Source: an uncultured Isosphaeraceae bacterium
GTDB lineage: Bacteria > Planctomycetota > Phycisphaerae > Phycisphaerales > SM1A02
Assembly (NCBI GenBank): GCA_964614695.1
Contig: CAZTMB010000001.1
Location: 1,858-65,857, forward strand
Length of the DNA: 64,000 bases
Reading direction: 5' to 3'
In this document: positions 24,079 to 42,203 of the stretch, in pieces
How positions within the stretch are numbered: position 1 is the stretch's first letter
Layout: each line of letters opens with the position of its first letter
Made by a program: the position numbers and the translations under genes
Notes under the pieces: model-generated
Seen by the model: only the letters and a program-made list of their open reading frames with translations
Database searches by the model: none
What the model was told of the DNA's origin: nothing

Positions 24079-25407
24079 ATGTCCTTCCTGATCGAGACGC
24101 TGCGTCTCGGCCTCAACAACCTCCGGCTCCACAAGCTCCGTTCGGTGCTGACGAGCCTCGGCATCATCCTCGGCGTCGCCGCGGTGATCGTGGTGGTCGC
24201 GATCGGAGAAGGGAACAAGCGATCCGCGCTGCGGGACATCGAGTCGCTTGGTGCGACCAACATCATCGTCCGATCGTCGAAGCCGCCGGCGACCGGCAGC
24301 GTGTCGACCATGCAGTCGTTCCTGGTGAACTACGGGCTCAAGTACCAGGACCAGCGGCGTCTCGAGCGGTGGATCGGCGACGCGAAGCAGGTGGTGCCGC
24401 TCAAGAGCGTGGGGTCGGAGATCCGCCGCGGGGCCTCCCGCACCGTGAGCCAGGCCTTTGGAACGGTGCCGGAGCTCGAGCGGGCGGCGAACCTGCGGGT
24501 CAAGTCTCGCGGCCGCTACCTGAGCCCGGAGGACCTCTCGAGTTCGGCCCCGGTCGCGGTGATCGGCTCCGCGATCGCCGAACAGTTCTTCCCGCTGGAG
24601 GACCCCCTCGGCCAGGACCTTCGCATCGACGACGCGATCTTCCGCGTGGTCGGCGTGCTCGATCCGATCGGCTTCGCGGGCGGCGCGGGCTCGGCGCTCG
24701 TCAACCGCGACCTCAACAAGGACATCCACATCCCCTTGTCGACCGCGCAGCAGCGCTTCGGGGACGTGGTCGTGCGGCGGGAGAGCGGTTCGTTCTCGGG
24801 CGAGGAGGTCGAGCTCTACGAGATCTACCTCTCGGCGCCCGACACCGACAGCGTGCTGTCGATGGCCGAGCGAGTCGAGCAGATCGTGGCGACCGGCCAC
24901 CCGGGCATGACCGACGTCCAGCTCATCGTGCCATGGGAACTGCTCGAGAACGCGAAGAAGGCGCTGCTCGTCTGGAACATCATGCTCGTGGCGATCGCGG
25001 CGATCAGCCTGCTCGTCGGCGGCATCGGCATCATGAACATCATGCTCGCTTCGATCACCGAACGCACTCGGGAGATCGGCATCCGACGAGCGCTCGGGGC
25101 GACGCGGCACCACATCGTGAGCCAGTTCCTCGTCGAGACCGGCACGCTGTCGACCGTGGGCGGCCTCATCGGCATCGGGGCAGGCATCGGCGTGGCGCTC
25201 GGGCTTCGCACGATCGTGCCGTGGCTCATGAAACTGCCGATCTTCCAAGGCATCGCCGACGGCAACTTCCGCCTCGAGCCGCAGATCACGGTGTGGTCGA
25301 TCGCGGTCAGCTTCGTGGTGGCGGCCGGAGTGGGCCTGATCTTCGGGATCTACCCCGCGGTGGTCGCCAGCCGCAAGGATCCGATCGAGGCGCTGCGTCA
25401 CGACTGA
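24079..25407 (+). CDS. FtsX/MacB-type ABC transporter permease (no ATPase partner nearby)
   Basis: 'LGLNNLRLHKLRSVLTSLGIILGVAAV' N-terminal TM, a periplasmic MacB_PCD-like region, and C-terminal 'ERTREIGIRRALGATRHHIVSQFLVE' FtsX motif. Confidence 0.85.
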   Translation: MSFLIETLRLGLNNLRLHKLRSVLTSLGIILGVAAVIVVVAIGEGNKRSALRDIESLGATNIIVRSSKPPATGSVSTMQSFLVNYGLKYQDQRRLERWIGDAKQVVPLKSVGSEIRRGASRTVSQAFGTVPELERAANLRVKSRGRYLSPEDLSSSAPVAVIGSAIAEQFFPLEDPLGQDLRIDDAIFRVVGVLDPIGFAGGAGSALVNRDLNKDIHIPLSTAQQRFGDVVVRRESGSFSGEEVELYEIYLSAPDTDSVLSMAERVEQIVATGHPGMTDVQLIVPWELLENAKKALLVWNIMLVAIAAISLLVGGIGIMNIMLASITERTREIGIRRALGATRHHIVSQFLVETGTLSTVGGLIGIGAGIGVALGLRTIVPWLMKLPIFQGIADGNFRLEPQITVWSIAVSFVVAAGVGLIFGIYPAVVASRKDPIEALRHD

Positions 25408-25452
25408 GCTGGGGTGGCGTTCGCCCGGTCGACCGCGGGCGTCTCGCACGCC

Positions 25453-25932
25453 TCAGGACCGGCGGACCCATCTCGATCGAAGCCAGAGCAGCCCCGCGGC
25501 CGGGATCCACGCAAGCATCCACGGAAGACGCTTGCGCCACGGCGGCGGCTCGCCCGCGATCGGCACGTTCGCCTCGAGCCTGCCCGCATCGCTCTCGACG
25601 ACGAGACGCCACTCGCCTTCGCTCGGCACCTCGAACTCGATGAACGCCGCCAACGGGTCGATCGCAGACGGTGCGGAGACGCCGCCGAGCACGACGCCGT
25701 CGCGCTCGAGCCGGATGCGCGGCGGACGCGCACGCCACGACTCCGCGATCGCCTCGATCGAGACGAGTCCCACCCGCGGCGGAACCGGCGCGACGAAGAC
25801 CGCGGCGGGCGAGCCGTCGTCGAGGCTGCCGCGGGCGACGAGCGCGCCGCCATCGGCGAAGGCCCCCGAGTCGGCGAGCGTCGCGGCGAGCAGTCCGGTC
25901 GCGAGCACTTGCGGGAGGCGTCGTCGCGTCAT
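25453..25932 (-). CDS. FixH/YtkA-like secreted, C-terminally anchored protein (putative)
   Basis: Signal-like 'RRRLPQVLATGLLAATLADSGAFA', beta-rich body 'FEVPSEGEWRLVVESDAG' and C-terminal TM 'LPWMLAWIPAAGLLWL'. The ATG overlaps the stop of the upstream FixG-like fusion (ATGA at 25929-25932). Confidence 0.5.
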   Translation of the reverse strand: MTRRRLPQVLATGLLAATLADSGAFADGGALVARGSLDDGSPAAVFVAPVPPRVGLVSIEAIAESWRARPPRIRLERDGVVLGGVSAPSAIDPLAAFIEFEVPSEGEWRLVVESDAGRLEANVPIAGEPPPWRKRLPWMLAWIPAAGLLWLRSRWVRRS

Positions 25933-28172
25933 GCCACCGCCCCCCGCATGTCCATCGGCACCTGCACGATCCAGAAGCCGAGCAGGCAGAGCGCCGCGGC
26001 GATCGCGATCCACGGCCACGACCAGCGGCCGAGGCTCTTGACGAGCGCCGCCGCCGTCACCAGAGCGCCGAGTTGCAACGCGAGCAGTTCCGCCGGCACA
26101 AGCCAGTCGGGCACCTCGGCGCAGCAGGCCTTCGCCCATTGCGGCTCGCCGAGATGAACACCGAGGTCGCCGGCGGCCCGCTGCAGGCTCGCCCATCCCG
26201 CCGCGAAGCCGGTGACGAGGTGGAAGCCGAAGTGAACCGCCCACATCGCGGCGCCGAGCGGCAACAGTCCGCGCATCCCGCGGCAGAACCGCTCCCGCGA
26301 TGCGGCCGACGCGGCCACGCCGAGCAGGGCCGGGACGGCGACGGCGGCGAGGATCGTGGCGACGAAGGCGACGAGCCGGTCGTTCGCGAGCCCGAGCGCC
26401 ATCGAGATCTCCCGCAGCCACGCGGTCACCGGCTCGGTCATGCCGACGGCATTCGCGAACGCGCCGAACACGAGCACGCCCGCGAGCATCGCCAGATCGA
26501 GGCGGTTCGAGATTCGACCGATGTTCGATCGGGGTCCGTCGTCGGCGAGATCCTCGATGGTGCGGCGATCGACGAGCGTCACGTTGTCGTGCGGGCACGC
26601 GTGCGCACAGTCCATGCAGAAGGTGCAGTCGAGGTTGCCGCGCTTGCGAGGCTGCGCCAGATGCAGTTCGCAGCCGGGAATCGACGGAGCCGGCGAAGGC
26701 GAGCCGGCGAAGGGCATCGCCAGCACCGGCAGCGCGAGGTGTCGATCGTGGTCGGCGGTGCGGCCGGTGCCGCGAATGCACTCCATCGTGGTGCAGGTTC
26801 CGCAGACCGCGGCGTTCCGCACGCCGACCGCGACCGGCGCGGTCTCCGCGAGCGATCCATGCAGTTGCCCGAGCGGGCAGACGTGCTTGCAGAACGCGGC
26901 GCCGGCGAAGAAGGCGTCGACGAGAAGCAGCGCCGCGACGTAGCCGACGAGGATCCACGCGGTCGCCCACGGGCTCGCCCAGAGGTCGAACGCCTCGTAG
27001 AAGGCAAGCCACAGCGCGACGAGCCCGACCGCAAGCCACTTCGAGCGAAGCGCCTTCGGGAACGGACGCGTCGGCTGCACGAAGCGCCGCAGCAGCCCGC
27101 GCGGCGCCATGAACGGGCAGCCCATGCACGCGAGATTCCCCGCGAGGATGATCCCGAGCACGATGAAGCCCCGCGCATGCGTCCACGGCAGCGTGCCCGC
27201 GAGGTTGGCGGGCGCCTCCTGCGGGCCGAACCAGCCGTCGAGGCAGACGAGGATCATGAGGGCGAACGCGGTCCACCGGATCGCGTCGCGCACGCGGCGC
27301 TGCCGCAGCGCCGGAAGCAGCAGCAGCGACGCGAGCGTCGGGCGCGGCATCGTGCGCCGTGGTGCGGCTGGAATCGAACAAGGCGCTTCGCGTCGCGGTC
27401 TCCTCAGGCTTCGTGCGACGAGCCATCCCGCGATCGGCAGCATCGCGGCCTGGCTCGCGAACCACATGAGCCCCGCGGCGATCTCCTGATCGCGCAGCGG
27501 AGAGACGCCCAGCATCGGGGCCGTCGTCTCGTAGGACGCGTAGATCGGTCGCCCCGCGAAGGCGAGGATGCCGCAGAAGACGGTGTTCTGGAGGTCGATC
27601 GCGAGCAGCAGCAGCACGCGAGGCATCGGGCTCCACGCGGAGCGGAACGGCCACGGTTCGAAGACGTTCCACCAGACGAGGATTCCCGTGCCGAGGAAGC
27701 AGAGGTGCTCGACCGCGTGCCAGAAGGGATCGGCGATCGCCAGTTCATAGAGCGCCGGGATGTGCCAGAACCACATCGACGCGGAGAAGAGGACGCCCGC
27801 CGTCAGCGGGTGCATGAGCGTGCGGTAGGCGCTCCGGCAGGGAGCGGCTGCGAGGAAGGGTCCGAGCGTCCGCTGCCAGCGGCGCGGAAGTCCGCGGAAG
27901 ATCGGCACGCCCGGCATGCCCGCGACGAGAAGCGGCGCCGCGACGAGCGAGAGCAGCACGTGCTGGGCCATGTGCGGCCAGAGCGCGTACTTCGCGAAGA
28001 GGTCGATGGGCGACGCGAGCGCCGCCCACAGCGTCGCGAGGCCGGCGAGGTAGCACGCCGCGCGTCCGCGGGAGAAGCGAGGGGGCAGGCCGATCCGTCC
28101 GCGCAAGTAGGTCGCCGCGAGCAGGACGATCGCGATCGTCGTCCACGGAGGCACCGTCCACGCGGAGAGCAT
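25929..28172 (-). CDS. fusion protein: caa3-type cytochrome oxidase assembly factor CtaG domain + FixG/CcoG/NapH-like membrane polyferredoxin
   Basis: The N-terminal ~270 aa are polytopic with 'WPHMAQHVLLSLVAAPLLVAG' and 'FWHAVEHLCFLGTG' (caa3_CtaG-like). The C-terminal part carries 'CMGCPF', 'CKHVCPLG', 'CGTCTTMEC' and 'CTFCMDCAHACP', then further TMs. It is one uninterrupted 747-codon frame. Confidence 0.75.
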   Translation of the reverse strand: MLSAWTVPPWTTIAIVLLAATYLRGRIGLPPRFSRGRAACYLAGLATLWAALASPIDLFAKYALWPHMAQHVLLSLVAAPLLVAGMPGVPIFRGLPRRWQRTLGPFLAAAPCRSAYRTLMHPLTAGVLFSASMWFWHIPALYELAIADPFWHAVEHLCFLGTGILVWWNVFEPWPFRSAWSPMPRVLLLLAIDLQNTVFCGILAFAGRPIYASYETTAPMLGVSPLRDQEIAAGLMWFASQAAMLPIAGWLVARSLRRPRREAPCSIPAAPRRTMPRPTLASLLLLPALRQRRVRDAIRWTAFALMILVCLDGWFGPQEAPANLAGTLPWTHARGFIVLGIILAGNLACMGCPFMAPRGLLRRFVQPTRPFPKALRSKWLAVGLVALWLAFYEAFDLWASPWATAWILVGYVAALLLVDAFFAGAAFCKHVCPLGQLHGSLAETAPVAVGVRNAAVCGTCTTMECIRGTGRTADHDRHLALPVLAMPFAGSPSPAPSIPGCELHLAQPRKRGNLDCTFCMDCAHACPHDNVTLVDRRTIEDLADDGPRSNIGRISNRLDLAMLAGVLVFGAFANAVGMTEPVTAWLREISMALGLANDRLVAFVATILAAVAVPALLGVAASAASRERFCRGMRGLLPLGAAMWAVHFGFHLVTGFAAGWASLQRAAGDLGVHLGEPQWAKACCAEVPDWLVPAELLALQLGALVTAAALVKSLGRWSWPWIAIAAALCLLGFWIVQVPMDMRGAVA

Positions 28173-28409
28173 GCGGGAAGGGTAGCGGTCGCGGGCGTCG
28201 AAGCCCGCGGTCTCGCGAAGTTCACGAGGCTCGCGGTGTTCGCGCGGCCGCCGACCCGAGAGCGCAAGCGCCCCGATCGATCGCCTCGTGCCACGCCCGG
28301 AACGGCAGCTTCGATCGAAACGAGGCGACGCGGACTGGTTCGCATCGCGCCGCGACGCGCCCGCGATGTTGAGCGACCTTCAGGGAGCTCCTGCGACCTT
28401 CTGCGGGCT

Positions 28410-29924
28410 TCAGCGACGCTCGGCGGCCTGCGGCGGAATCGGCAGGAGCGCGCCGGGCGGGTTCGAGGTCTGCTCGTTCTCGGGATGCATGGTGAGCAGG
28501 AAGCGCGCGACCGCCTCGGTCTCGGCGCTCGTCAGGCTCTTGCCGAACGCCGGCATGTTGCCGCCGCCCTGCTGGATCTGCCGCACGAGCTGGTCGTAGG
28601 AGAGCCGCGTGGCGACGTCGTCGAGCGCCGGGCCGCGCAGGCCGCCCTGGCCGCCGAGTTCGTGGCAGTTGCGGCACTGGGCGTTCTGGATGACGACCGC
28701 ACCCTGCAGTTCGAGCGGGCCGCGATCCTTGACGTACTCGACCGGCGTGGGAATCGAACTCCACGCGTCCATGACGGGACTCCACGGGCTCTGCCGTCCT
28801 TCCCACGTGAGGATGCCGAGCGCCGTCGCGGCAAGCACCACACCGAGCACCATGAGCGGACGCCGGCTCGGGGCGCGTTCGCCGCCGTTGGAGAGGATCG
28901 GCAGCAGCACGAGGCCGAGGATGAGCGCGCCCGGCGCCACGAGCATCACGAGCGTCTCGCTCGCGGGCGGAATGAGCGAGACGAGCCCGAAGATCCAGAG
29001 GAACGGCAGGTCGGGCCGCGGGTTGGTGTCGATGTCGGTCGGGTCGGGAAGGCCGTTCGGTCCGATCGGCCCGAGCCAGAGCGCGACCGCGACGAGCACG
29101 AGGAGCATCGAGCCGCAGAAGACGAGATCGCGCTTCGCCGCGTCCGGCCAGAACGGCACGCCGTGCTTGTGGATGCGGGCCTCGTAGGTCTCGCGGTAGG
29201 TCGCAGGATCGACCGGCTCGCCGACCTTGGGCATCTCGCTGATGCCGTGACGCAGCACGAGCACCAGATGCAGTCCGACGAGGGCGATGGTGATCCCCGG
29301 CAGCACGAAGACGTGGAGGGCGAAGAAGCGGTTGAGCGTCTCGCCGCTGATGGTCGGCCCGCCGAGCAGCAGGTCGCGGGCGAGGTTGCCGAAGACGGGG
29401 ATGCGATCGGCGATCGCGGCACCGATGCCGATGCCCCAGTAGGCGTCCTGATCCCACCGCAGCACCTGGCCGGTGAAGGCGAGGGCGAGCGTCAGCAGGC
29501 AGAGGAAGACGCCGACGATCCAGGTGAGCTCGCGCGGGAACTTGTAGGTCGCGTGCAGGAAGACCTGCACCATGTGCAGGATCATCATCGCGACCATCGC
29601 GTTGCTCGACCATCCGTGGATCGCCCGCAGCATCCAGCCGAACGGGACGGCGGTGTCGATGTAGACCAGGTTCTCGTAGGCGTTCGAGGCGCTTGGCGCG
29701 TAGAGCGTGCCGAGGCAGATGCCCGTCACGATCTGCAGCGAGAAGAACATCAGCGTCGCGCTGCCGAAGACGTAGAACCACCGGGCGCTCGGCGGCACCT
29801 TGTGGGTCATGATCGGCGCGAGGAACGCGCCGATGCCGGTGCGGTCCTCGAGCCAGCGGATCGGCACGAGGATCGCGCCGAGCAGGGGACCGGGCTTGCG
29901 CTGCCCAGACGCGGCGTCGCTCAT
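28410..29924 (-). CDS. cytochrome b (b6 + subunit IV-like) fused to a C-terminal monoheme cytochrome c domain
   Basis: 'FYVFGSATLMFFSLQIVTGI', 'HGWSSNAMVAMMILHMVQVF' and 'FFALHVFVLPG' give the bis-His heme b ligand pattern. C-terminal 'CRNCH ... GGNMPAF'. Confidence 0.9.
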   Translation of the reverse strand: MSDAASGQRKPGPLLGAILVPIRWLEDRTGIGAFLAPIMTHKVPPSARWFYVFGSATLMFFSLQIVTGICLGTLYAPSASNAYENLVYIDTAVPFGWMLRAIHGWSSNAMVAMMILHMVQVFLHATYKFPRELTWIVGVFLCLLTLALAFTGQVLRWDQDAYWGIGIGAAIADRIPVFGNLARDLLLGGPTISGETLNRFFALHVFVLPGITIALVGLHLVLVLRHGISEMPKVGEPVDPATYRETYEARIHKHGVPFWPDAAKRDLVFCGSMLLVLVAVALWLGPIGPNGLPDPTDIDTNPRPDLPFLWIFGLVSLIPPASETLVMLVAPGALILGLVLLPILSNGGERAPSRRPLMVLGVVLAATALGILTWEGRQSPWSPVMDAWSSIPTPVEYVKDRGPLELQGAVVIQNAQCRNCHELGGQGGLRGPALDDVATRLSYDQLVRQIQQGGGNMPAFGKSLTSAETEAVARFLLTMHPENEQTSNPPGALLPIPPQAAERR

Positions 29925-30581
29925 TCAGGGCGCCTCCTGCAGGCCGGGCAGCCGCCCGGCGTCGATCCACAGATGCCCGTCCTCGATCTTCGCCGGATAC
30001 GGGAAGAGGCTCCGCGGCGGCGGCCCGCTCGCCCGCGATCCGTCCTCGTAGTAGACCCCGCCGTGGCAGGGACACATGAAGAGCCGCGACTGCGGGAACC
30101 AGCGCACCGGACAACCGAGGTGGGCGCAGTTCACCGCGAAGACCTGGAAGTTCGGCGCCTGCGGGTTGAAGGCGTTCGACGGCGGCGGATCGCCGCTTGA
30201 GGTGTCCATCGGCTGCGCCTTCGCGCGGTCGCCGACGTCGCCGGCCGGCACGTGGCGAACCCAGCAGCCGGTGTTCGCGGTGAGGCCGTCGGTCGGCGAC
30301 GTCCACGGATTGATGAAGGTCGCGAAGCGCGTCTCGCCCGGGGGATAGAGCGAGACCGGGCCGAGATCGACCCACTGCTCGGGATACTGGCGAAGGCCCG
30401 GGCCGAGCATCGCGGAGACGACCGGAACCGCGGCGGCCGCGCCGCCGGCGCCCATCAGGCCGAGTCCCACCTTGAACATGAACTGGCGGCGATCGCCGCC
30501 GCCGCAGCCGGCGCAGGGGCTTTCGCCTTCGGCGCCGCCGACCTGCGGCAGCGAGGTCTTGGGTTCGTTCGATTCGCTCAC
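29925..30581 (-). CDS. Rieske [2Fe-2S] subunit of a cytochrome bc-type complex
   Basis: Tat-like 'DRRQFMFKVGLGLMGAGGAAAA', plus cluster boxes 'CAHLGCPV' and 'CPCHGGVY'. GTG start overlaps the upstream stop (GTGA). Confidence 0.9.
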   Translation of the reverse strand: MSESNEPKTSLPQVGGAEGESPCAGCGGGDRRQFMFKVGLGLMGAGGAAAAVPVVSAMLGPGLRQYPEQWVDLGPVSLYPPGETRFATFINPWTSPTDGLTANTGCWVRHVPAGDVGDRAKAQPMDTSSGDPPPSNAFNPQAPNFQVFAVNCAHLGCPVRWFPQSRLFMCPCHGGVYYEDGSRASGPPPRSLFPYPAKIEDGHLWIDAGRLPGLQEAP

Positions 30582-31318
30582 GAGTCGCTTCCTCCTTCAC
30601 TCGACGAGGCCGCCGGAAGCGGCGGGTTCATCGCCGATTCCGACGCCCAGGTCGGGCGCTTCGAGGCGAGATACGCCACGACGTCCGCGATCTCCGCCGG
30701 GGCGAGATCCGACGCGGGCTTTCCGAGATCCGGGCGGCCGAAGACGACGGCGCTCCAGAGGCCCTGATCGGTGATGTTGGCGAGAAAGAGCGGGCTCGTC
30801 ACCGAGTCGCGCGAGCCTTCGGCGTGGCAGGAGACGCACGAGTTCGCGAAGACCGCCTCGCCCCGCGTCGCGTCGCCGAGCTTGACCGCGGAGCCGGCGG
30901 CCGCGGGTTCGCCGGGAGTCTCCCACTTCGCGCGAAGGCCCTTGACGATGAGATCGATCTCCTTGTCGCCGAAGTTCTCGTAGGCGATGTAGGGGCCGCC
31001 CTTCGCCCGCGACGAGAAGCCGGGCATCAGCCGGCCGAGCCCGACCGCCACCGCTTCGACGACCTGCGTGTCGGGCATGGTGCGCCACCAGAGCGGATCG
31101 TTCAGCGGGCGTGCGGCGCCGAGCGTGCCGTCGGCGCCGTGGCAGCCGGCACAGCTGTTGGACCAGAACGCCGCGACGCCTTCGGCGGTGTCGAGGCCCG
31201 GCGCCTCGGGCGCCGGCTTCTCGACCGAGCCGGGCGGCAGCGGTCCGCGGCCGCAGGCGGCGAGCGCCGACGCGAGGCCGATGGCGGCGAGGGGAAGCAG
31301 GAGGGAGGCTCGCGTCAC
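30578..31318 (-). CDS. diheme cytochrome c lipoprotein (QcrC-like)
   Basis: Lipobox 'LASALAAC' and two heme motifs 'CAGCH' and 'CVSCH'. GTG start at 31318 overlaps the upstream stop (GTGA). The track ORF extends further upstream as Arg-rich junk. Confidence 0.8.
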   Translation of the reverse strand: MTRASLLLPLAAIGLASALAACGRGPLPPGSVEKPAPEAPGLDTAEGVAAFWSNSCAGCHGADGTLGAARPLNDPLWWRTMPDTQVVEAVAVGLGRLMPGFSSRAKGGPYIAYENFGDKEIDLIVKGLRAKWETPGEPAAAGSAVKLGDATRGEAVFANSCVSCHAEGSRDSVTSPLFLANITDQGLWSAVVFGRPDLGKPASDLAPAEIADVVAYLASKRPTWASESAMNPPLPAASSSEGGSDS

Positions 31319-32124
31319 GACGCGCCTCCTTCGCTTCGCTCGACGCCGATCCGCTCGGTGAAGTCGAGGTCGCGCATGGTGGAGACCTTCTCGAAGCGGT
31401 TCACGAAGAAGCCGCAGACGCCGCCGAAGGCGACCTGGCTTCCCACGAACCACGGCCAGGAGATGAACTCCTCGAGCGCCGGATTGATGATGCCCATCGT
31501 GCCCCACGAGAGCGCCGAGAGAATGACCGGGGCGACCACGATGCCGAAGAGCATCGGGCGCCGCGGCATCATCGGAAGCGCCACCGTGAAGAGGAGGCCC
31601 GTCGAGATCGAGAGCACCAGGTGGATGAGCGAGGCGATCGCGAGCCAGCCGCCGTTGAAGCTCGCGAGCTGCGCCTCGTCGAGTTCGGCCATCGCCGGAT
31701 TCACGGCGCCGGCGAGCAGATTGATCGGAAGCCACAGGCTGCCGTGCTCGACGAGCCCCCACGCGGCGGCCACGGCCGCCATCGCCACGCCACCTGCGAG
31801 TCCGCCGAAGACGCCCGCGCGGTAGGGATGGATCTCGACCGGCAGCACGAGCCGGCGGCTCGGTGCCGTCCGCGGCGGAAGCGGCGGCGGCACGACGTCG
31901 GTCTGGCCGCCGGTCGGCTCGATCGGCTCGACCGACTCCTCGGGCATCACGTCGCGGAACCACCGGACGGCGCCGAAGACCAGCGCCGCCGCGCCCACGA
32001 CGCTCGCCGCGACGTTCGTCACCACGCCCGCAAAGAGCATCGCGACGCCGAAGGCCGCGATCAGCGGTCCCGCGGTCGGCTTGGGGATCGCCCGGGAGTA
32101 GGGCGTCTCTCGCGGCTCGCTCAT
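31315..32124 (-). CDS. uncharacterised polytopic membrane protein embedded between ctaE and the cytochrome c gene
   Basis: 269 aa with about six hydrophobic segments. ATGA overlap with the ctaE stop at 32121-32124 and GTGA overlap with the next gene at 31315-31318. No family recognised by eye. Confidence 0.65.
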   Translation of the reverse strand: MSEPRETPYSRAIPKPTAGPLIAAFGVAMLFAGVVTNVAASVVGAAALVFGAVRWFRDVMPEESVEPIEPTGGQTDVVPPPLPPRTAPSRRLVLPVEIHPYRAGVFGGLAGGVAMAAVAAAWGLVEHGSLWLPINLLAGAVNPAMAELDEAQLASFNGGWLAIASLIHLVLSISTGLLFTVALPMMPRRPMLFGIVVAPVILSALSWGTMGIINPALEEFISWPWFVGSQVAFGGVCGFFVNRFEKVSTMRDLDFTERIGVERSEGGAS

Positions 32125-32741
32125 GAGAGGATTCCCGTGCCGACGAGGTAGACCGACGTGAAGACGAAGATCCACACCACGTCGACGAAGTGCCAGTACC
32201 AGCTGACGAGCTCGACCTTCTCCGCGTCGGCGGCCTTCAGATGCCCGAGCTTCGAGAGCGTCCAGATCAGCCCGAGCGCGGTGAGGCCGAGGACCACGTG
32301 GAAGGCATGGAAGCCGACGAGGCTGTAGTAGGTGCTTCCGAAGAGGTTCGTCGAGATGAAGAGGTCGTGGTCGAGCATGAGGCCGCGCCACTCCATCGCC
32401 GTGCCGTAGATGAACGCGCCGCCGAGGAGCAGCGTCAGGCCGAGCCAGAACTCGAAGGCGGCCTTGGATCCGCGGGCGAGCGCCTTGACGGCCGCGACGA
32501 CCGTTGCGCTCGAGGAAAGCAGGCAGATCGACCAGACGACGACCGGGCCGACGTCGAGACAGTCCTTGCCGGTCGGTCCCTTCACGTCCTTCCCGACGTA
32601 GTAGAGGAACGCGACGATGAAGGTCCCGAAGAAGAAGCTCTCCATGGCGATGAGGCAGGCCATGCCCGTCTTGCCGCGGGTCGGCCGCCATTCGGCGTCG
32701 TCGGCGGGCGCCGCCTGAAGGGCATCACTCGTAGCGGCCAT
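32121..32741 (-). CDS. ctaE: cytochrome c oxidase subunit III
   Basis: 'GFHAFHVVLGLTALGLIWT' and 'WYWHFVDVVWIFVFTSVYLVG'. Confidence 0.9.
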   Translation of the reverse strand: MAATSDALQAAPADDAEWRPTRGKTGMACLIAMESFFFGTFIVAFLYYVGKDVKGPTGKDCLDVGPVVVWSICLLSSSATVVAAVKALARGSKAAFEFWLGLTLLLGGAFIYGTAMEWRGLMLDHDLFISTNLFGSTYYSLVGFHAFHVVLGLTALGLIWTLSKLGHLKAADAEKVELVSWYWHFVDVVWIFVFTSVYLVGTGILS

Positions 32742-34407
32742 CGGGATCCTCCGGGTGCTTGAGGTCCCACAGCGGGCGGCGGCTGCCGACGGTGGGGGGC
32801 GTGTCGAAGTTGTGCTCGGGCGGCGGGCTCGTGGTCGCCCACTCGAGCGTCCAGGCGTCCCACGGATCGTTGCCGGCGACGGCTCCCTTGCGGAGCGAGC
32901 GGACGAGGTTCCACACGATCAGCAGCACGCCGATGGCCTGCAGCGGAACGCCGCTCGAGGAGAGCAGGTTCCACAGCTCGAGGCCGCGATCGGGCTGGAA
33001 GGTGTAGATCCGCCGCGGCATGCCGAGCAGACCGCTGATGTGCATGGGGAAGAAGGTGAGGTTGAAGCCGGCGAAGAGCAGCCAGAACGACCACTTCGCG
33101 ATCGTCTCGTTCAGCATGCGGCCGAACGCCTTGGGATACCAGTAGTGGATCGCGCCGAAGATCGCGAACACCGTGCCGCCGAAGAGCACGTAGTGGAAGT
33201 GGCCGACGACGAAGTAGCTGTCGCTCACCTGCCAGTCGAAGGGCACCATCGCGAGCATGATGCCGGTGAGCCCGCCGATCACGAACATCGCGACGAAGCC
33301 GGTCGCGAAGAGCATGGGGCTCGCGAAGCGGATGCGGCCGCCCCACATGGTGCCGATCCAGTTGAAGATCTTGATGCCCGTCGGCACCGCGATCATGAAG
33401 GTCATCGCGCTGAAGAAGGCGTTGAGGGCCGGGCCCATGCCGACCGCGAACATGTGGTGGGCCCAGACGCTGAGCGAGATGAAGCCGATCGCCACGGTCG
33501 CGGCGACCATGAGCGGGTAGCCGAAGATCACCTTGCGGCTGAAGGTCGGGATGATCTCGCTCACGAAGCCGAAGGCGGGCAGGATGAGGATGTAGACCTC
33601 CGGGTGCCCGAAGAACCAGAAGAAGTGCTGCCAGAGGATCGCGCTGCCGCCCTCCTGCGGATCGAAGAAGTGCGCCCCGAGGTTGCGGTCGAAGAGGAGC
33701 ATCACCTGCGCGGCGGTGAGCGGCCCGAGGGCGGTGATCACCAGCACGCCGACGATCAGCATCATCCAGGCCATGAGCGGCATCCGCATGAGCGTCATGC
33801 CCTTGCAGCGCATCGACAGGATGGTGACGACGAGGTTGATCCCCGTGGCGATCGATCCGAAGCCGCTCACCATGATCCCGAGGATCCAGTAGTCGGTGCT
33901 GTTGCCGCGGCTGAAGGTGCGGTCGGTGAGCGGGGCGTAGGCGAACCAGCCCACGTCGGGCGCGACCGAGGTCCCGTAGAGCCCCTGCGCTCCGATGTAG
34001 CTGAAGTAGAGGAGGAGGCCGCCGAAGAGGAACAGCCAGAAGCCGAAGGCGTTCAGGCGCGGGAAGGCCATGTCCCGCGCGCCGATCATGAGGGGGATCA
34101 GGTAGTTGCCCATCCCGAGCAGGATCGGCATGCCCACCAGGAAGACCATGGTGGTGCCGTGCATGGTGAAGAGCTGGTTGAAGACCTCCGGACTCACGAG
34201 GTCGTTGCCGGGTCGCGCGAGCTGCGCCCGCATGATCGAGGCCTCGATGCCGCCGATCACGAAGAAGACGAGCCCCGAGAGCACGTACATGATTCCGAGG
34301 CGCTTGTGGTCGACCGTCGCCGCCCACGCGTGAAGCCGCGTCGCGAGGGGGACGGCGCGCGACGCGCCTTCCTCGACCCGCACGGGCGTGGTGCTCAGGG
34401 TGCTCAT
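32725..34407 (-). CDS. ctaD: cytochrome c oxidase subunit I (heme-copper oxidase, A-type)
   Basis: 'DHKRLGIMYV', 'WFFGHPEVYILILPAFG', 'VWAHHMF' and 'GHFHYVLFGG'. Confidence 0.97.
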   Translation of the reverse strand: MSTLSTTPVRVEEGASRAVPLATRLHAWAATVDHKRLGIMYVLSGLVFFVIGGIEASIMRAQLARPGNDLVSPEVFNQLFTMHGTTMVFLVGMPILLGMGNYLIPLMIGARDMAFPRLNAFGFWLFLFGGLLLYFSYIGAQGLYGTSVAPDVGWFAYAPLTDRTFSRGNSTDYWILGIMVSGFGSIATGINLVVTILSMRCKGMTLMRMPLMAWMMLIVGVLVITALGPLTAAQVMLLFDRNLGAHFFDPQEGGSAILWQHFFWFFGHPEVYILILPAFGFVSEIIPTFSRKVIFGYPLMVAATVAIGFISLSVWAHHMFAVGMGPALNAFFSAMTFMIAVPTGIKIFNWIGTMWGGRIRFASPMLFATGFVAMFVIGGLTGIMLAMVPFDWQVSDSYFVVGHFHYVLFGGTVFAIFGAIHYWYPKAFGRMLNETIAKWSFWLLFAGFNLTFFPMHISGLLGMPRRIYTFQPDRGLELWNLLSSSGVPLQAIGVLLIVWNLVRSLRKGAVAGNDPWDAWTLEWATTSPPPEHNFDTPPTVGSRRPLWDLKHPEDPDGRYE

Positions 34408-34456
34408 GCCGCGGGTTCCTGCATCGAAGGGCTCCTGTCGCGGGGACCGCGTCGCG

Positions 34457-35554
34457 TCATCGCAGCGAGGCGAGGTAGTCGACCACCGCGTCGAGCTGCG
34501 CGTCGTCGAGCTTGAGGGAAGGCATGTTGCAGCCGGGCTTGAGCGTCTGCGGATCGTCGATCCACTGTCGCAGCGTGTCGCGATCGAGCGGCGCGACGCC
34601 CGCGCCGATCGTCGCCCGGCTCATGAGGTGGGTGAGGTTCGGACCGAAGGCGCCGTCGGAGACGCCCGCGATGTCGTGGCACGACTGGCACGCGAAGGCG
34701 AGGAAGACCTCCTTGCCGCGCCGCGTCGACTCGTCGTCGACCGGAGGCTGCTGCTGGTTGGCGACCCAGGCGTCGAATCCGAGCGGTCCGTCCAGTTCGC
34801 GAGCCTCGACCCGCAGCAGCATGTTCGCGTGCTGGGTGCCGCAGTACTCGGCGCACTGGCCGAGGAAGACCCCGGGCCTCTCCGCCTCGAACCACAGGTT
34901 GTTGGGATGGCCGGGAATGCAATCTATTTTGCCCGCGAGCTGCGGGACCCACCAGGAGTGGTTGACGTCGGCGGAGTGCAGCTCGAGCCAGATCGGCCGG
35001 CCTGCGGGGACGACGAGTTCGTTCGCGGTGACGATGCCGAAGTCCGGATAGCGGTACTCCCACCACCACTGGTGCCCGATGACCACGACCTTGAGGGCGT
35101 TCTCCGGCGGCGAGCTTCGTTCGATCTCGCGGATGAGCCGCACCGACGTGAGCGTCAGCACGAACACGATGACGATCGGAATGACCGTCCACGCGAGTTC
35201 GACCGGATTGCTGCCGTAGACCTGACGAGGCTCCGCGTCGCCTTCGGAGGCAGCGGCGGACTTCGCGGCGCGGTACTTGAGGATCGCGTGGACGAGCGCG
35301 CCCTGCACCACCACGAAGATCGCCGCGCAGATCGCCAGCAGCAGCCAACTGAGCGTCTCGATGTCCGCCGCGGGCGGGCTCGCGGGATCGAACATCGTCG
35401 GGATCGTCGGCATCGGCAGGCCGGTGCTCGGATCGCAGATCTCCGAGATCGCGTCGGGCGCGAGCGCCGGCGGCGCCGAGCCGAGGGTTCGTGTGGCGAG
35501 CAGGAGCACCGGAGCCGCGATTGCAACCTGGAGAGAGCGGCCGAAGTGCCTCAT
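34457..35554 (-). CDS. ctaC: cytochrome c oxidase subunit II with fused cytochrome c domain (caa3-type)
   Basis: CuA site 'HSWWVPQLAGK...CAEYCGTQHANM' and C-terminal 'CQSCH'. Internal ATG (MRHFGRSLQ) of track ORF 34457..36949. Confidence 0.92.
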   Translation of the reverse strand: MRHFGRSLQVAIAAPVLLLATRTLGSAPPALAPDAISEICDPSTGLPMPTIPTMFDPASPPAADIETLSWLLLAICAAIFVVVQGALVHAILKYRAAKSAAASEGDAEPRQVYGSNPVELAWTVIPIVIVFVLTLTSVRLIREIERSSPPENALKVVVIGHQWWWEYRYPDFGIVTANELVVPAGRPIWLELHSADVNHSWWVPQLAGKIDCIPGHPNNLWFEAERPGVFLGQCAEYCGTQHANMLLRVEARELDGPLGFDAWVANQQQPPVDDESTRRGKEVFLAFACQSCHDIAGVSDGAFGPNLTHLMSRATIGAGVAPLDRDTLRQWIDDPQTLKPGCNMPSLKLDDAQLDAVVDYLASLR

Positions 35555-40243: not shown

Positions 40244-41737
40244 TCACGGGTTCCGAAGCAGGGCGTGGCTCAAGCGGTCGACCGACTCGCGAAGCCGTTC
40301 CGCATCGCTTCCGGGAGCCTCCATCGCCTCGCGGGTCCTCGCCTCGGCCGCATGGATCGCCGAGTGATTGCGGCGTCCGAGGCCGCGGGCGATCTCCGGG
40401 AAGCTCAGCGTGGTCAGTCGGCGGGCGAGGTGCGCGACGATGCCTCGGGCTTCGCTGGCGCGGCGAAGCTTCGAGCCCCCGAGGATCTCCTCGCGGTCGA
40501 TCTCGAGATGCTCCGAGACCGCCTCGACGATCGAACCGAGTCGGATCGGCGTGCGCCGCGCGACGCGGCGGTCCTCCTCGAGCAGTTGCTCGACGAGCAG
40601 CATGCCGACCTCGCCGCGGAACTCGCCCGAACCTTCGCCGAGCGAGGCAAGCGCCGCGAGCTTCGCGATCGCGCCTTCGAGTTCGCGGGCCGAGCCCACG
40701 AAGCGGCCGACGAGGCACTCCTCCGCGGCTTCGCCGAGACGCAGTCCCCGCTGCATCGCCAGCCGACGCAGCAGCGTGCGGCGGGTTTCGCGATCGGGCG
40801 ACTCGACGCGGACGACCATGCCCGCGAGGAAACGGCTCACCAGCGAGCGATGGAACCGGCCGATCTGACGCGGGTGCTCGTCGGAGGCGAGCACGACCCG
40901 GGACCCGCCGAGGGCGATCGAGTCGAGGGTGTGCAGGAACTCGCTCTGCGTCGCGGTCTTGTTCGAGAGGAAGTGGACGTCGTCGATCGCAAGGAGCTCG
41001 AGACCACGGAAGCGTCGACGGAAGGACTCGAGCGATCCGCTGCGGACCGAGGCGATGAACTCGTTCGTGAACGCCTCGCCGGTCGTGTAGCGGATCTTCG
41101 CGGATCGAATCCGCTCGCGGCGTCGGCGGCAGATCGCCTGCAGCAGATGGGTCTTGCCGACCCCGCACTCCCCATGCAGGAAGAGCATCCGGTCGGCCGC
41201 ATCGTCGGCGTCGGCGATGCGGCGGGCCGCGTCGAAGGCGAGTCGATTGCCGTCTCCCACCACGAAGTCCTCGAGCCGCCGCCACGTGTCGGAGGGATGA
41301 GGACGGGGGCCCGGGCGAACGGACGACCCCGGCGCGAGGAGGGCCGGAACCGGATCGATCGCGAGCGATTCGGACGCGGAGGACGCTCGCGAAGTCGTCT
41401 CGCCTCGCGGGGTGGGGTCGGCCTCGCCACGGGATGGACCGCGTCCGCGACCGGGGGCGTCCTCCGTCGGGTGGGACGGTGCCGCGGGCGCTCGGACTTC
41501 GATCCGAGCCGCCTCGCCGAGCCCAAGGCTTTCTCGGGCCACGTCCCGCAACGCGTCGGCGAAGTTCCGGCCGATCCAGTCCGCGGCGTATCCCGACGTG
41601 GCCACCACTTCGAGGTCACCGTTGCGCACCGCGTAGCGGGTGCCTTGACCGAACCACATCTCGACCTTCCGGTTGCCAAGTCGTCGAGCGAGCCCGTGAG
41701 AGATTCGCGAGGGGTCGATCGAGGCGGTGTGGCTCAT
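40244..41737 (-). CDS. dnaA: chromosomal replication initiator protein DnaA
   Basis: Walker A 'GECGVGKTHLLQAI', 'LLAIDDVHFLSNKTATQSEFLHTL', 'RELEGAI', and C-terminal DNA-binding region 'ARGIVAHLARRLTTLSFPEIARGLGRRNHSAIHAAE'. Internal ATG of track ORF 40244..42811. Confidence 0.93.
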   Translation of the reverse strand: MSHTASIDPSRISHGLARRLGNRKVEMWFGQGTRYAVRNGDLEVVATSGYAADWIGRNFADALRDVARESLGLGEAARIEVRAPAAPSHPTEDAPGRGRGPSRGEADPTPRGETTSRASSASESLAIDPVPALLAPGSSVRPGPRPHPSDTWRRLEDFVVGDGNRLAFDAARRIADADDAADRMLFLHGECGVGKTHLLQAICRRRRERIRSAKIRYTTGEAFTNEFIASVRSGSLESFRRRFRGLELLAIDDVHFLSNKTATQSEFLHTLDSIALGGSRVVLASDEHPRQIGRFHRSLVSRFLAGMVVRVESPDRETRRTLLRRLAMQRGLRLGEAAEECLVGRFVGSARELEGAIAKLAALASLGEGSGEFRGEVGMLLVEQLLEEDRRVARRTPIRLGSIVEAVSEHLEIDREEILGGSKLRRASEARGIVAHLARRLTTLSFPEIARGLGRRNHSAIHAAEARTREAMEAPGSDAERLRESVDRLSHALLRNP

Positions 41738-42133
41738 GGGCGACCGTGAGGGGAGAGGCGGGCGGATCGGGTGAACCGGCGAGCCCTCGCGGAGGCGTGG
41801 TCTGCCGACCACGCGCCGCGAGTCGATGGCTCGCCGGGCATCTCGAGTCGTTCGCCGACGCGGGTGGATCCAACGGTCGCGGTCGAGACGCTTCGCCTCG
41901 CCGACACGCCCGATCGATCCGACACGCGGCGGAACCACCGAGCCGCCGCCCCCAACGACAGAAGCGTCGATGCGGAGGAGGAAGGCTCGGGGTGCCCGTC
42001 CCTGGGTCGGCGGGAAATCTACGCGGCGAGATTCCGTGCTCAAGCCGAGAATTCGTCGCGTCGAGGTCTCGCGATGCGCAAACCCCGGTGGCGCTCGGGC
42101 GGAAGCGAATTCTCCACGGGATCGGCGCCCGGC

Positions 42134-42153
42134 TGTCCGCACGTTGTGGACAA
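42134..42153. promoter_or_regulatory. inverted pair of DnaA-box-like sites upstream of dnaA
   Basis: TGTCCGCA (42134-42141) and TGTGGACA (42145-42152) form an imperfect palindrome. TGTGGACAA is one mismatch from the reverse complement of TTATCCACA. TTCTCCACG at 42110-42118 is two mismatches from it. Confidence 0.4.
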
Positions 42154-42203
42154 CCTCGCGCTCTTGCGGGGGTCGGCGATTCCTCGTAGCGCCGCGGCGC
42201 GAC

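What the first reader, a model, noticed from the sequence alone, without database searches (positions are those of the whole stretch)
25453..28172. CtaG (caa3 assembly factor) fused in-frame to a FixG/CcoG-like polyferredoxin and coupled to a FixH-like gene
One uninterrupted 747-codon frame joins two parts. The first is a caa3_CtaG-type polytopic domain ('WPHMAQHVLL', 'FWHAVEHLCFLGTG'). The second is a membrane polyferredoxin with 'CMGCPF', 'CKHVCPLG', 'CGTCTTMEC' and 'CTFCMDCAHACP', plus extra C-terminal TMs. Bacillus-type CtaG is needed for caa3 oxidase assembly, and CcoG/FixG-family proteins have been shown to act as cupric reductases in cbb3 oxidase biogenesis. A fusion would therefore couple Cu(II) reduction directly to copper delivery for the adjacent caa3 oxidase. 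The next gene overlaps by ATGA and encodes a small signal-peptide, beta-rich, C-anchored protein. It occupies the position FixH holds after FixG in fixGHIS operons.
Basis: partly seen in the sequence, partly recalled or inferred. Interest (0 to 1): 0.65.

Follow-up and report, generated by a model that had tools for sequence, protein, structure and literature searches.

The report
CtaG–polyferredoxin fusion with YtkA-like partner
The last two genes of a cytochrome bc–caa3 oxidase operon encode a real, widely conserved membrane protein that joins the copper-oxidase assembly factor CtaG to an iron-sulfur electron-transfer module and a small periplasmic partner, which suggests copper is reduced and delivered to the oxidase by one machine, although nobody has tested this.

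Summary
Window 25929-28172 (- strand) is one 747-codon gene, and 25453-25932 (-) is a 159-codon gene overlapping it by ATGA.

The N-terminal part is a clear Caa3_CtaG domain (Pfam E 7.6e-54). The middle is a 4-TM, two-cluster polyferredoxin of the NapH/MauN/YccM/NosR/CcoG superfamily. It is nearer to NapH and YccM than to CcoG and fails every curated cut-off. The last 194 residues form an uncharacterised 5-TM module with an invariant HxxxH and a C-terminal PMxMRG.

The fusion is not an assembly artefact. Full-length homologues occur in at least 593 species genomes (Planctomycetota, Verrucomicrobiota, Acidobacteriota, Binatia), mostly directly after cytochrome b in the same COX1-COX3-x-cyt c-Rieske-cyt b arrangement.

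The downstream protein is an Ig-like, C-anchored member of the YtkA/FixH superfamily. It lacks the His/Met copper ligands of CtaK.

New here: CtaG-less versions of the polyferredoxin-5TM gene exist. In the three such loci with DNA, a CtaK-like lipoprotein gene (MTHxGM motif) sits just upstream and a small gene just downstream. This supports a copper-handling redox role.

A cupric-reductase relay for caa3 biogenesis is the best reading, but it is inferred. I found no paper that describes the fusion.

The parts
25929..28172 (-). Whole fusion gene: 747 codons plus stop. Modules in order: CtaG, polyferredoxin, 5-TM module.
   Evidence: GC3 0.90. Full-length homologues.
27402..28115 (-). Caa3_CtaG domain (residues 20-257), about 7 TM. 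H67, M68, Q70, H71, H137, H152, H156, D228, Q229 and M236 are each at least 97% conserved. All are predicted in the outer half of the membrane.
   Evidence: Pfam PF09678, E 7.6e-54. Conservation in 118 sequences. Topology from hydropathy and the AF2 helices.
27300..27401 (-). Variable Arg/Lys-rich cytoplasmic linker joining the CtaG and polyferredoxin modules (residues 258-291).
   Evidence: 12 K/R in loop 250-296. pLDDT below 50 at 260-275. Length varies across the alignment.
26853..27299 (-). NapH/YccM-type 4-TM bundle (residues 292-440). CMGCP (27114-27128) and CKHVCP (26874-26891) sit at the cytoplasmic ends of its 2nd and 4th helices. The periplasm-facing residues D312, N323, P329, W330, R334, Y392, E393 and W398 are invariant.
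   Evidence: hhalign to YccM (E 1.6e-10) and NapH (E 1.6e-9), with the CX3CP motifs aligned. NCBIfam NapH/MauN..
26514..26852 (-). Cytoplasmic ferredoxin domain (residues 441-553). Eight invariant Cys: C457xxC460xxxxC465 (26778-26804), C501 (26670-26672) and C516xxCxxCxxxCP527 (26592-26627). That is enough for two [4Fe-4S] clusters. A lineage-specific insert at 467-512 is modelled with low confidence.
   Evidence: Weak Fer4_10/Fer4/Fer4_7/Fer4_18 hits in relatives. Aligned to the NapH and YccM cluster motifs. pLDDT.
25932..26513 (-). Uncharacterised C-terminal 5-TM module (residues 554-747). Invariant M578; H647xxxH651 within a TM helix (26220-26234); terminal P739-M-x-M-R-G744 on the outer face (25941-25958). 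No family model matches it.
   Evidence: (pLDDT above 90). No Pfam or NCBIfam hit in this region for 30 members. No similarity to the other modules. Also present in the CtaG-less homologues.
25453..25932 (-). Translationally coupled partner gene (159 aa). Signal peptide, an invariant D-G-G at the predicted mature N-terminus, an Ig-like beta-sandwich of the YtkA/FixH superfamily, and a C-terminal TM anchor.
   Evidence: ATGA overlap. Present directly downstream in 68 of 82 loci. YtkA hit in 23/42 and FixH in 6/42 orthologues. The family profile hits bona fide YtkA lipoproteins at 1e-8 to 1e-10. AF2 pLDDT 88.
28410..35554 (-). Upstream genes of the same operon. COX2 with a cyt c domain (34457-35554), COX1 (32725-34407), COX3 (32121-32741), an unknown protein (about 31315-32130), dihaem cyt c (30578 to about 31320), Rieske (29925-30581), and a cytochrome b fused to cyt c (28410-29924).
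   Evidence: Pfam hits. The same gene order occurs in L001 and L002 and in most of the 82 loci.

Best explanation
The locus encodes a two-protein copper-handling unit for maturation of the adjacent caa3 oxidase.

Protein 1 is a single 16-TM polypeptide with three modules:
(i) A Caa3_CtaG domain. It resembles CopD, and its conserved His/Met/Asp residues face the outer half of the membrane.
(ii) A NapH/YccM/CcoG-superfamily polyferredoxin. Two Cys-X2/3-Cys-Pro motifs sit at the cytoplasmic membrane surface, and a cytoplasmic domain carries two [4Fe-4S] clusters.
(iii) A new 5-TM module with an intramembrane HxxxH and an outward-facing C-terminal Met-x-Met.

Protein 2 is an Ig-like YtkA/FixH-superfamily domain held at the outer membrane face by a C-terminal helix. 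It probably docks on protein 1, much as the Ig domain of CcoG or CcoH does, and is unlikely to be a copper chaperone itself.

Proposed mechanism (inferred, not shown): copper bound by the CtaG module is reduced from Cu(II) to Cu(I) by electrons passed through the Fe-S clusters and the CXnCP thiols. CcoG does this for cbb3 oxidase. The Cu(I) is then handed through the His/Met sites of the 5-TM module or CtaG to apo-COX1 and/or COX2.

What is shown: the architecture, the family assignments, the conservation pattern, the operon linkage, and the existence of CtaG-less cassettes in which the same module is paired with a CtaK-like copper lipoprotein.
For: - Single frame with coding bias.
- Caa3_CtaG at 183 bits.
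- NapH/MauN, NosR and CcoG models hit 30, 19 and 11 of 30 homologues.
- hhalign to YccM and NapH aligns both CXnCP motifs and both cluster motifs.
- All 12 Cys and the His/Met residues are at least 97% conserved in 118 full-length proteins.
- Topology places the Fe-S domain and the CXnCP motifs on the cytoplasmic side, and the CtaG His cluster and PMxMRG on the outer side.
- At least 593 species genomes carry the fusion. In most of the 82 fetched loci it directly follows cytochrome b of a COX1-COX3-cyt c-Rieske-cyt b operon.
- The partner gene is adjacent in 68 of 82 loci, often with a 4-bp overlap.
- 21 of the 150 best 50%-identity clusters are complete CtaG-less versions. In L083, L086 and L087 these are flanked by a lipoprotein with a Pfam YtkA hit and a G-x-MTHxGM motif.
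- Literature: CcoG is an Fe-S cupric reductase, and YccM is its Ig-less homologue (PMC7558416). CtaK/YtkA and CtaG are caa3 assembly factors, CtaG's role is unresolved, and a localised cupric reductase has been postulated (PMC13344008, PMC9145763).
Against: - No biochemical data exist for any member.
- The module scores far below the curated cut-offs of the CcoG, NapH and NosR models. It is closer to NapH, a quinol dehydrogenase subunit, than to CcoG.
- The first cluster motif is non-canonical (CxxCxxxxC plus a distant Cys), and that region is poorly modelled.
- The partner protein has no conserved metal ligands.
- In some Verrucomicrobiota (Terrimicrobiaceae, Chthoniobacter) the gene is not linked to the oxidase genes. 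In seven Terrimicrobiaceae loci the partner gene is also missing.
- The electron donor is unknown.
- I could not inspect model coordinates to check that the proposed sites lie close together.
Confidence: 0.5

Rival explanations
1. The Fe-S module moves electrons across or along the membrane, as NapH and NosR do. On this view it links the quinol pool or a cytoplasmic donor to a periplasmic target rather than reducing Cu(II). Possible targets are the CuA cysteines of COX2, a Sco/TlpA-like thiol, or an already inserted copper centre kept reduced.
For: The best family matches are NapH/MauN and NosR, not CcoG. Invariant polar and aromatic residues lie on the periplasmic face of the 4-TM bundle: D312, N323, W330, R334, Y392, E393 and W398. 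From my own knowledge, NosR maintains a periplasmic copper enzyme that has a CuA centre.
Against: No periplasmic redox cofactor domain is present (no flavin, haem or Cys pair). The periplasmic 'ACC' pair at 681-683 is not invariant. The pairing with CtaG and with CtaK-like copper proteins points to copper itself as the substrate.
Confidence: 0.25
2. The protein is mainly a structural or assembly subunit of a bc-caa3 supercomplex, in the manner of CcoH. On this view the Fe-S domain acts as a redox or oxygen sensor that gates assembly and has no catalytic role.
For: It is the terminal gene of an operon that encodes both complexes. Its partner resembles FixH/CcoH, which stays bound to cbb3 oxidase (PMC8267372). 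The C. glutamicum CtiP fusion stabilises the bc1-aa3 supercomplex (PMC9145763).
Against: CtaG-less versions occur away from any oxidase genes. Twelve invariant Cys and conserved His/Met sites suggest chemistry rather than scaffolding.
Confidence: 0.12
3. The fusion is an assembly or annotation artefact: two genes were joined by a missed stop codon or a frameshift near 27.3 kb.
For: The junction is a low-complexity Arg-rich linker with low model confidence.
Against: The same single-ORF architecture, with 100% query coverage, is found in more than 100 independent protein clusters and in at least 593 species genomes, including complete genomes of cultured strains such as Lacipirellula limnantheis and Anatilimnocola aggregata. 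The coding bias runs continuously through the ORF.
Confidence: 0.01

Closest known systems
Caa3_CtaG (B. subtilis CtaG; Pfam PF09678)
   Same: A 7-TM domain with the conserved His/Asp set. It is encoded at the end of the oxidase locus, and in Bacillus it is required for caa3 activity (PMC9145763).
   Different: Here it is only the first third of a 747-aa protein. It scores 79.5 bits against the 279-bit equivalog cut-off of TIGR02737.
CcoG/FixG/RdxA cupric reductase of cbb3 oxidase biogenesis (TIGR02745)
   Same: A membrane polyferredoxin with two [4Fe-4S] motifs on the cytoplasmic side, encoded next to a haem-copper oxidase and associated with an Ig-like periplasmic domain (PMC7558416).
   Different: The match to the CcoG model is very weak (E 0.38; 11 of 30 relatives at 0.1 or better). 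There is no FixG_C domain in the polypeptide and no ccoH/ccoI/ccoS neighbours. The oxidase is A-type caa3, not cbb3. It also has an extra 5-TM module and the CtaG fusion.
NapH / MauN / E. coli YccM (TIGR02163)
   Same: The closest sequence relatives. They share four TM helices, two Cys-X3-Cys-Pro motifs and two cluster motifs, all of which align. All 30 sampled homologues hit this model.
   Different: Scores are 32 bits against a 213-bit cut-off. The first motif is CX2CP. There are no nap or mau genes nearby. It adds five C-terminal TMs and the CtaG domain.
CtaK (YtkA) and the YtkA domain of YcnJ in B. subtilis; FixH/CcoH
   Same: The partner protein has the same Ig-like fold family and is encoded next to a CopD/CtaG-type membrane domain. 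This echoes the CopC-CopD-YtkA order of YcnJ (PMC13344008).
   Different: It lacks the conserved His/Met ligands of CtaK. It is anchored by a C-terminal helix, not by a lipid or an N-terminal helix. Its mature N-terminus is an invariant D-G-G.
CtiP of Corynebacterium glutamicum (CopD-CtaG fusion)
   Same: This is another natural fusion that ties Caa3_CtaG to a second copper-handling membrane module in an organism with a bc-aa3 supercomplex (PMC9145763).
   Different: The fused partner there is CopD plus an unknown 6-TM domain, not an Fe-S protein.

Membership tests
Caa3_CtaG (PF09678) | Match to the family HMM above the gathering score | tested here: met
   183 bits against 27.7; residues 20-257 cover profile positions 7-236 of 237. 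30 of 30 homologues match.
Caa3_CtaG (PF09678) | [quoted passage not shown] | tested here: met
   Seven helices. H67, H71, H137, H152, H156 and D228 are at least 97% conserved. The feature is as described in PMC9145763.
Caa3_CtaG (PF09678) | Equivalog-level identity with Bacillus CtaG (TIGR02737 trusted cut-off) | tested here: not met
   79.5 bits against 279.35.
Caa3_CtaG (PF09678) | Required for caa3 oxidase activity | not testable with these tools
   Only operon linkage is shown.
CcoG/FixG/RdxA (TIGR02745) | Match to the equivalog model | tested here: not met
   E 0.38, 9.6 bits against 316.7. 11 of 30 relatives match at E 0.1 or better; best 4.5e-4.
CcoG/FixG/RdxA (TIGR02745) | Fer4_5 + Fer4_18 + C-terminal FixG_C Ig-like domain in one polypeptide | tested here: not met
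   Fer4_5 scores 17.1 bits, below its cut-off of 22. Fer4_18 is found in only 4 of 30 relatives. FixG_C is absent. An Ig-like domain is supplied by a separate gene.
CcoG/FixG/RdxA (TIGR02745) | Two [4Fe-4S]-binding Cys motifs | tested here: inconclusive
   Eight invariant Cys are present. One motif is canonical (CxxCxxCxxxCP); the other is CxxCxxxxC plus C501. Cluster binding has not been measured.
CcoG/FixG/RdxA (TIGR02745) | ccoGHIS context next to cbb3 oxidase genes | tested here: not met
   The neighbours are A-type COX1/2/3 and bc genes. No P-type ATPase or ccoS is present.
CcoG/FixG/RdxA (TIGR02745) | Cu(II)-specific reductase activity | not testable with these tools
   This needs the purified protein.
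NapH/MauN/YccM polyferredoxins (TIGR02163) | Four TM helices, two CX3CP motifs and two cytoplasmic cluster motifs, alignable to NapH and YccM | tested here: met
   hhalign probability is 96-97% (E 1.6e-9 and 1.6e-10) over 166-183 columns, with all motifs in register. The first motif is CX2CP.
NapH/MauN/YccM polyferredoxins (TIGR02163) | Score above the curated family cut-off | tested here: not met
   32 bits against 213.05; NapH equivalog 30.1 against 234.
FixH (PF05751), for the downstream protein | Match to the FixH model | tested here: not met
   The window copy has no hit. 6 of 42 orthologues match at E 1 or better; best 0.0025.
YtkA/CtaK (PF13115), for the downstream protein | Match to the YtkA model / homology to YtkA proteins | tested here: inconclusive
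   The window copy has no hit. 23 of 42 orthologues match weakly (best 3.3e-5). The family profile finds Pfam-positive YtkA lipoproteins at 1e-8 to 1e-10. This supports superfamily membership only.
YtkA/CtaK (PF13115), for the downstream protein | Conserved His and Met copper ligands (PMC9145763); lipoprotein anchor | tested here: not met
   No column in the periplasmic domain has 30% or more His, Met or Cys. The window copy has 0 His, 0 Cys and 1 Met. It has a signal-peptidase-I-type site and a C-terminal TM helix instead of a lipobox.

The most novel reading that the evidence does not exclude
The polyferredoxin-5TM protein and its Ig-like partner form a previously unrecognised, widespread class of membrane cupric reductase and Cu(I) relay. 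The unit plugs into different copper acceptors. In PVC bacteria and Acidobacteriota it is fused to CtaG. In other lineages it is co-encoded with a CtaK-like lipoprotein. If so, it would be the first mechanistic handle on what Caa3_CtaG does. It would also show that A-type (aa3/caa3) oxidases, like cbb3 oxidases, rely on a dedicated Fe-S copper reductase.
Probability: 0.35. Interest if true: 0.75.

Novelty: new variant of a known kind. Interest (0 to 1): 0.6.

Why it matters
How copper reaches the CuA and CuB centres of A-type oxidases in bacteria that lack Cox11 is still unsettled. The role of Caa3_CtaG is described as tentative (PMC9145763). A 2026 B. subtilis study explicitly raises the need for a localised membrane cupric reductase, and notes that CcoG has no homologue in Firmicutes (PMC13344008).

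A natural fusion that is conserved across four phyla physically ties CtaG to a CcoG-superfamily Fe-S module. The same module also sits next to a CtaK-like lipoprotein in CtaG-less cassettes. Together these give a "Rosetta-stone" argument that copper reduction and copper insertion are coupled for aa3-type oxidases too.

The fusion also defines specific residues to mutate: 12 Cys, HxxxH and PMxM. Finally, it flags an abundant gene pair in environmental Planctomycetota, Verrucomicrobiota and Acidobacteriota that is currently annotated only as "cytochrome c oxidase assembly protein" or "hypothetical".

Tried and rejected
- PDB sequence search with the whole protein: no hit at E 1 or better.
- Foldseek of both AF2 models against the PDB: nothing for the fusion (best E 0.39) and only generic Ig domains for the partner. 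Structure therefore added no functional assignment. I could not read model coordinates, so I did not measure distances between sites.
- Internal duplication: hhalign between the CtaG, 4-TM and 5-TM modules found nothing.
- Promoter and terminator scan of 25200-28500: no sites.
- tblastn of the polyferredoxin part against 72,556 plasmids, hoping to pick up rhizobial fixG for a direct comparison. It found only three distant 4Fe-4S proteins and no fixG. I therefore used E. coli NapH and YccM.
- Literature: six full-text searches and targeted reading of eight papers found no description of a CtaG-polyferredoxin fusion. The primary CcoG paper (PMC6800367) is not held, so what I say about CcoG's copper sites rests on the review PMC7558416.
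- The idea that the partner is a CtaK-type chaperone was rejected for lack of ligands.
- The frameshift or artefact reading was rejected.
Full report

The window has about 70% G+C, so long spurious ORFs abound. One example is a 1509-codon ORF antisense to this very region. The 747-codon frame at 28172->25929 (- strand) nevertheless shows the coding signature of this genome, with GC3 0.90 and GC2 0.54. It translates without interruption. The next gene (25932->25453, 159 codons) overlaps it by ATGA.

The genes upstream on the same strand are:
- COX2 with a C-terminal cytochrome c domain and an intact CuA motif
- COX1 and COX3
- an unassigned protein
- a dihaem cytochrome c
- a Rieske protein
- a cytochrome b fused to cytochrome c

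So the oxidase is caa3-type, and the operon also encodes a bc complex.

**2. Is the fusion genuine?**

A search of 5.8 billion proteins returned 346 relatives. The 120 best are almost all 700-850 residues long and cover 90-100% of the query at 38-93% identity. IMG already labels several of them "CtaG/ferredoxin" or "CtaG/polyferredoxin".

They fall in:
- Planctomycetota (Phycisphaerae, Pirellulales, Gemmatales, Isosphaerales)
- Verrucomicrobiota
- Acidobacteriota
- Binatia

The closest genome in that scan is a Phycisphaerae MAG at 72% identity, so the window probably comes from that class. Complete genomes of cultured strains carry the same single ORF. A frameshift or missed stop is therefore excluded.

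**3. Anatomy of the fusion protein**

*Residues 20-257: CtaG.* This part is Caa3_CtaG (Pfam 183 bits). H67, M68, Q70, H71, H137, H152, H156, D228, Q229 and M236 are each at least 97% conserved in 118 full-length sequences. From hydropathy, the positive-inside rule and the AF2 helices, they all lie in the outer half of the membrane.

*Linker.* A variable Arg-rich cytoplasmic linker follows. It has low confidence in the model.

*Residues 292-553: polyferredoxin.* This part has four TM helices. CMGCP and CKHVCP sit at the cytoplasmic ends of helices 2 and 4. A cytoplasmic domain follows with eight more invariant Cys: CxxCxxxxC, C501 and CxxCxxCxxxCP.
- Single-sequence scores are weak: Fer4_5 17 bits, NapH/MauN 32 bits, CcoG 9.6 bits. 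All are far below the curated cut-offs.
- Family-level evidence is consistent, however. All 30 sampled homologues hit NapH/MauN, 19 hit NosR and 11 hit CcoG.
- A profile of the family aligns to E. coli YccM (E 1.6e-10) and NapH (E 1.6e-9), with both CXnCP motifs and both cluster motifs in register.
- YccM is regarded as the Ig-less homologue of the cupric reductase CcoG (PMC7558416).

The module is therefore a divergent member of the NapH/YccM/NosR/CcoG superfamily. It is not a CcoG orthologue.

*Residues 554-747: a new 5-TM module.* This part forms five more TM helices and is modelled with pLDDT above 90. It matches no Pfam or NCBIfam model and does not resemble the other two modules. M578, H647xxxH651 (inside a helix) and the C-terminal P-M-x-M-R-G (outer face) are invariant.

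No solved structure resembles any part of the protein by sequence or by fold.

**4. The partner protein**

The 159-residue product has these features:
- a signal peptide ending A-x-A
- an invariant D-G-G at the predicted mature N-terminus
- an Ig-like sandwich (AF2 pLDDT 88)
- a C-terminal TM helix

A profile of 42 orthologues finds the gene directly downstream, on the same strand, in 68 of the 82 loci. The start often overlaps the fusion's stop codon by 4 bp.

The window copy matches no family model. Of the 42 orthologues, 23 weakly match Pfam YtkA and 6 match FixH. The family profile detects bona fide YtkA lipoproteins at 1e-8 to 1e-10. It is therefore a YtkA/FixH-superfamily domain.

Unlike CtaK, which has conserved His and Met residues (PMC9145763), this family conserves no His, Met or Cys in its periplasmic domain. 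The window copy has none at all apart from one Met in the anchor helix. I therefore read it as a docking or assembly subunit. That is analogous to CcoH, or to the Ig domain that CcoG carries in cis. I do not read it as a copper chaperone. The invariant D-G-G N-terminus is unexplained.

**5. Context across genomes**

In most of the 82 loci, spanning all four phyla, the fusion gene directly follows cytochrome b of the same COX1-COX3-x-cyt c-Rieske-cyt b arrangement. The exceptions are mostly Terrimicrobiaceae and Chthoniobacter. There the gene sits among unrelated genes such as mla or tmk, and seven Terrimicrobiaceae loci also lack the partner gene.

**6. An unexpected sister form**

An exhaustive HMMER search with residues 290-747 found 1273 representative proteins with E at or below 1e-3, and 211 at or below 1e-30. 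I classified the best 150 as follows:
- 33 complete fusions
- 17 partial fusions
- 21 complete proteins of about 430-640 residues that lack CtaG but keep the polyferredoxin and the 5-TM module; 19 of the 21 have an HxxxH in their last 170 residues, and 12 keep PMxMRG
- 79 fragments or unclassified

All three such loci for which DNA was available (L083, L086, L087) have the same cassette:
- first, a lipoprotein with a Pfam YtkA hit, a lipobox and a G-x-M-T-H-x-G-M motif
- then the CtaG-less polyferredoxin-5TM gene
- then a small downstream gene

In L083 the downstream protein matches the partner-family profile at 4e-28. In L087 it is a 221-aa C-anchored protein that does not match the profile. 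In L086 the gene is cut off by the contig end. A fourth contig has the same size pattern with a 4-bp overlap.

So the conserved core is the polyferredoxin-5TM protein, usually with its Ig-like partner. It is joined either to CtaG (as a fusion inside the oxidase operon) or to a CtaK-like copper lipoprotein (as a neighbouring gene). Both of these partners are caa3 assembly factors in Bacillus (PMC13344008, PMC9145763).

**7. Mechanism**

*Shown:*
- the architecture and the family relationships
- the conservation pattern and the predicted topology
- the operon linkage
- the alternative pairing with a CtaK-like protein

*Inferred:*
- The Fe-S clusters, on the cytoplasmic side, and the two CXnCP motifs at the membrane surface deliver electrons to copper held by the CtaG module, which resembles CopD.
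- This converts Cu(II) to Cu(I), as CcoG does for cbb3 oxidase.
- The Cu(I) then leaves through the His/Met sites (HxxxH, PMxM, or the CtaG His cluster) to apo-COX1 and/or COX2, with the Ig-like partner capping or docking the complex.

I put this at about 0.5.

*Main rival (0.25):* a NapH/NosR-style electron conduit to a periplasmic thiol or copper centre. This is favoured by the better NapH and NosR scores and by the invariant periplasm-facing residues of the 4-TM bundle.

*Other rivals:* a purely structural or sensory role in a bc-caa3 supercomplex (0.12), and an assembly artefact (0.01 or less).

**8. Comparison with known systems, and novelty**

The locus works most like CcoG plus a copper acceptor, but it fails the CcoG membership tests (model score, FixG_C domain, ccoHIS context). 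It passes Pfam membership for Caa3_CtaG. It aligns convincingly to NapH and YccM but falls below their family cut-offs. The partner belongs to the YtkA/FixH superfamily and lacks the ligands that define CtaK.

Automated pipelines have noticed the domain combination, as the IMG names show. However, six full-text searches and targeted reading of reviews on oxidase assembly and copper homeostasis found no description of it. A 2026 paper on Bacillus copper trafficking lists other natural fusions (Sco-CtaM, CopD-CtaG) but not this one.

I rate it a new variant of known kinds: a new domain architecture, an uncharacterised 5-TM module and a ligand-less YtkA paralogue.

**9. Verdict**

The finding is real and the gene pair is widespread. 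Interest is 0.6. It would surprise few people that such a fusion exists. Its value is that it turns two open questions into specific, mutable hypotheses: what CtaG does, and whether aa3-type oxidases need a dedicated cupric reductase.

Noticed in passing
L083:2057-4672, L086:165-2301, L087:7183-9843: CtaG-less homologues of the polyferredoxin-5TM protein (519-526 aa) lie in a three-gene cassette. A YtkA lipoprotein with a lipobox and a G-x-MTHxGM motif is upstream, and a small gene is downstream. The downstream protein matches the partner-family profile in L083, does not match it in L087 (221 aa, C-anchored), and is cut off by the contig end in L086. A BlaI/Penicillinase_R-type regulator is adjacent in L083 and on a JGI contig. 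The host taxa were not determined.
   Followed up: partly
L014, L022, L028, L030, L032, L034, L044, L045, L050, L078 (downstream genes): Verrucomicrobial copies of the partner protein carry an insert of about 15-30 residues with one or two Cys, in the pattern 'W-x-PP-x-C' or 'PPCC'. Planctomycete copies, including the window's, lack it. This could be a lineage-specific metal or disulfide site.
   Followed up: no
window 31315-32130 (-): A conserved gene with no confident family hit lies between COX3 and the dihaem cytochrome c (only DUF3040 at E 0.004). Genes of 305-432 aa with no Pfam hit on record occupy the same position in L001 and L002. It may be an extra subunit or assembly factor of the bc-caa3 system.
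   Followed up: no
window 28173-28409: A 237-bp non-coding gap separates cytochrome b/c from the fusion gene in this genome. In L001 the gap is 7 bp, and in L002 it is 63 bp. No sigma-70-like promoter or intrinsic terminator was detected.
   Followed up: partly
L012, L015, L026, L036, L037, L055, L072 (Terrimicrobiaceae): In these loci the fusion gene is unlinked to the oxidase and bc genes and lacks the partner gene. In L012 and L037 the ORF is also extended at the N-terminus (816 codons). Chthoniobacter loci L025, L044 and L050 keep the partner but, within the sequence available, lack the oxidase genes. In L050 the fusion gene follows mlaEFD-like genes.
   Followed up: partly
L041:12323-13816: Here the partner protein continues into a C-terminal extension of about 300 residues (497 aa in total). 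The extra domain was not identified.
   Followed up: no
L073:12241-13092: In this Bryobacteraceae locus the gene after the fusion is a polytopic protein, not the Ig-like partner. By eye it looks like a UbiA-type haem O synthase (CtaB). This was not tested with a family search.
   Followed up: no
window 25671-30200 (+): A 1509-codon ORF runs antisense to the fusion gene and to cytochrome b. It is the kind of long spurious ORF expected in 70% G+C DNA, and it did not pass the GC3/GC2 coding-bias filter.
   Followed up: partly
window 40244-42811 (-), 7828-11817 (+), 15295-17661 (+): The window is ordinary chromosomal DNA. It encodes DnaA (with an N-terminal extension of about 360 residues), DNA polymerase III alpha, an H+-pyrophosphatase, GMP synthase and other housekeeping genes. 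No Sco, PCuAC, Cox11, CtaA or CtaB gene was found among the ORFs scanned.
   Followed up: partly
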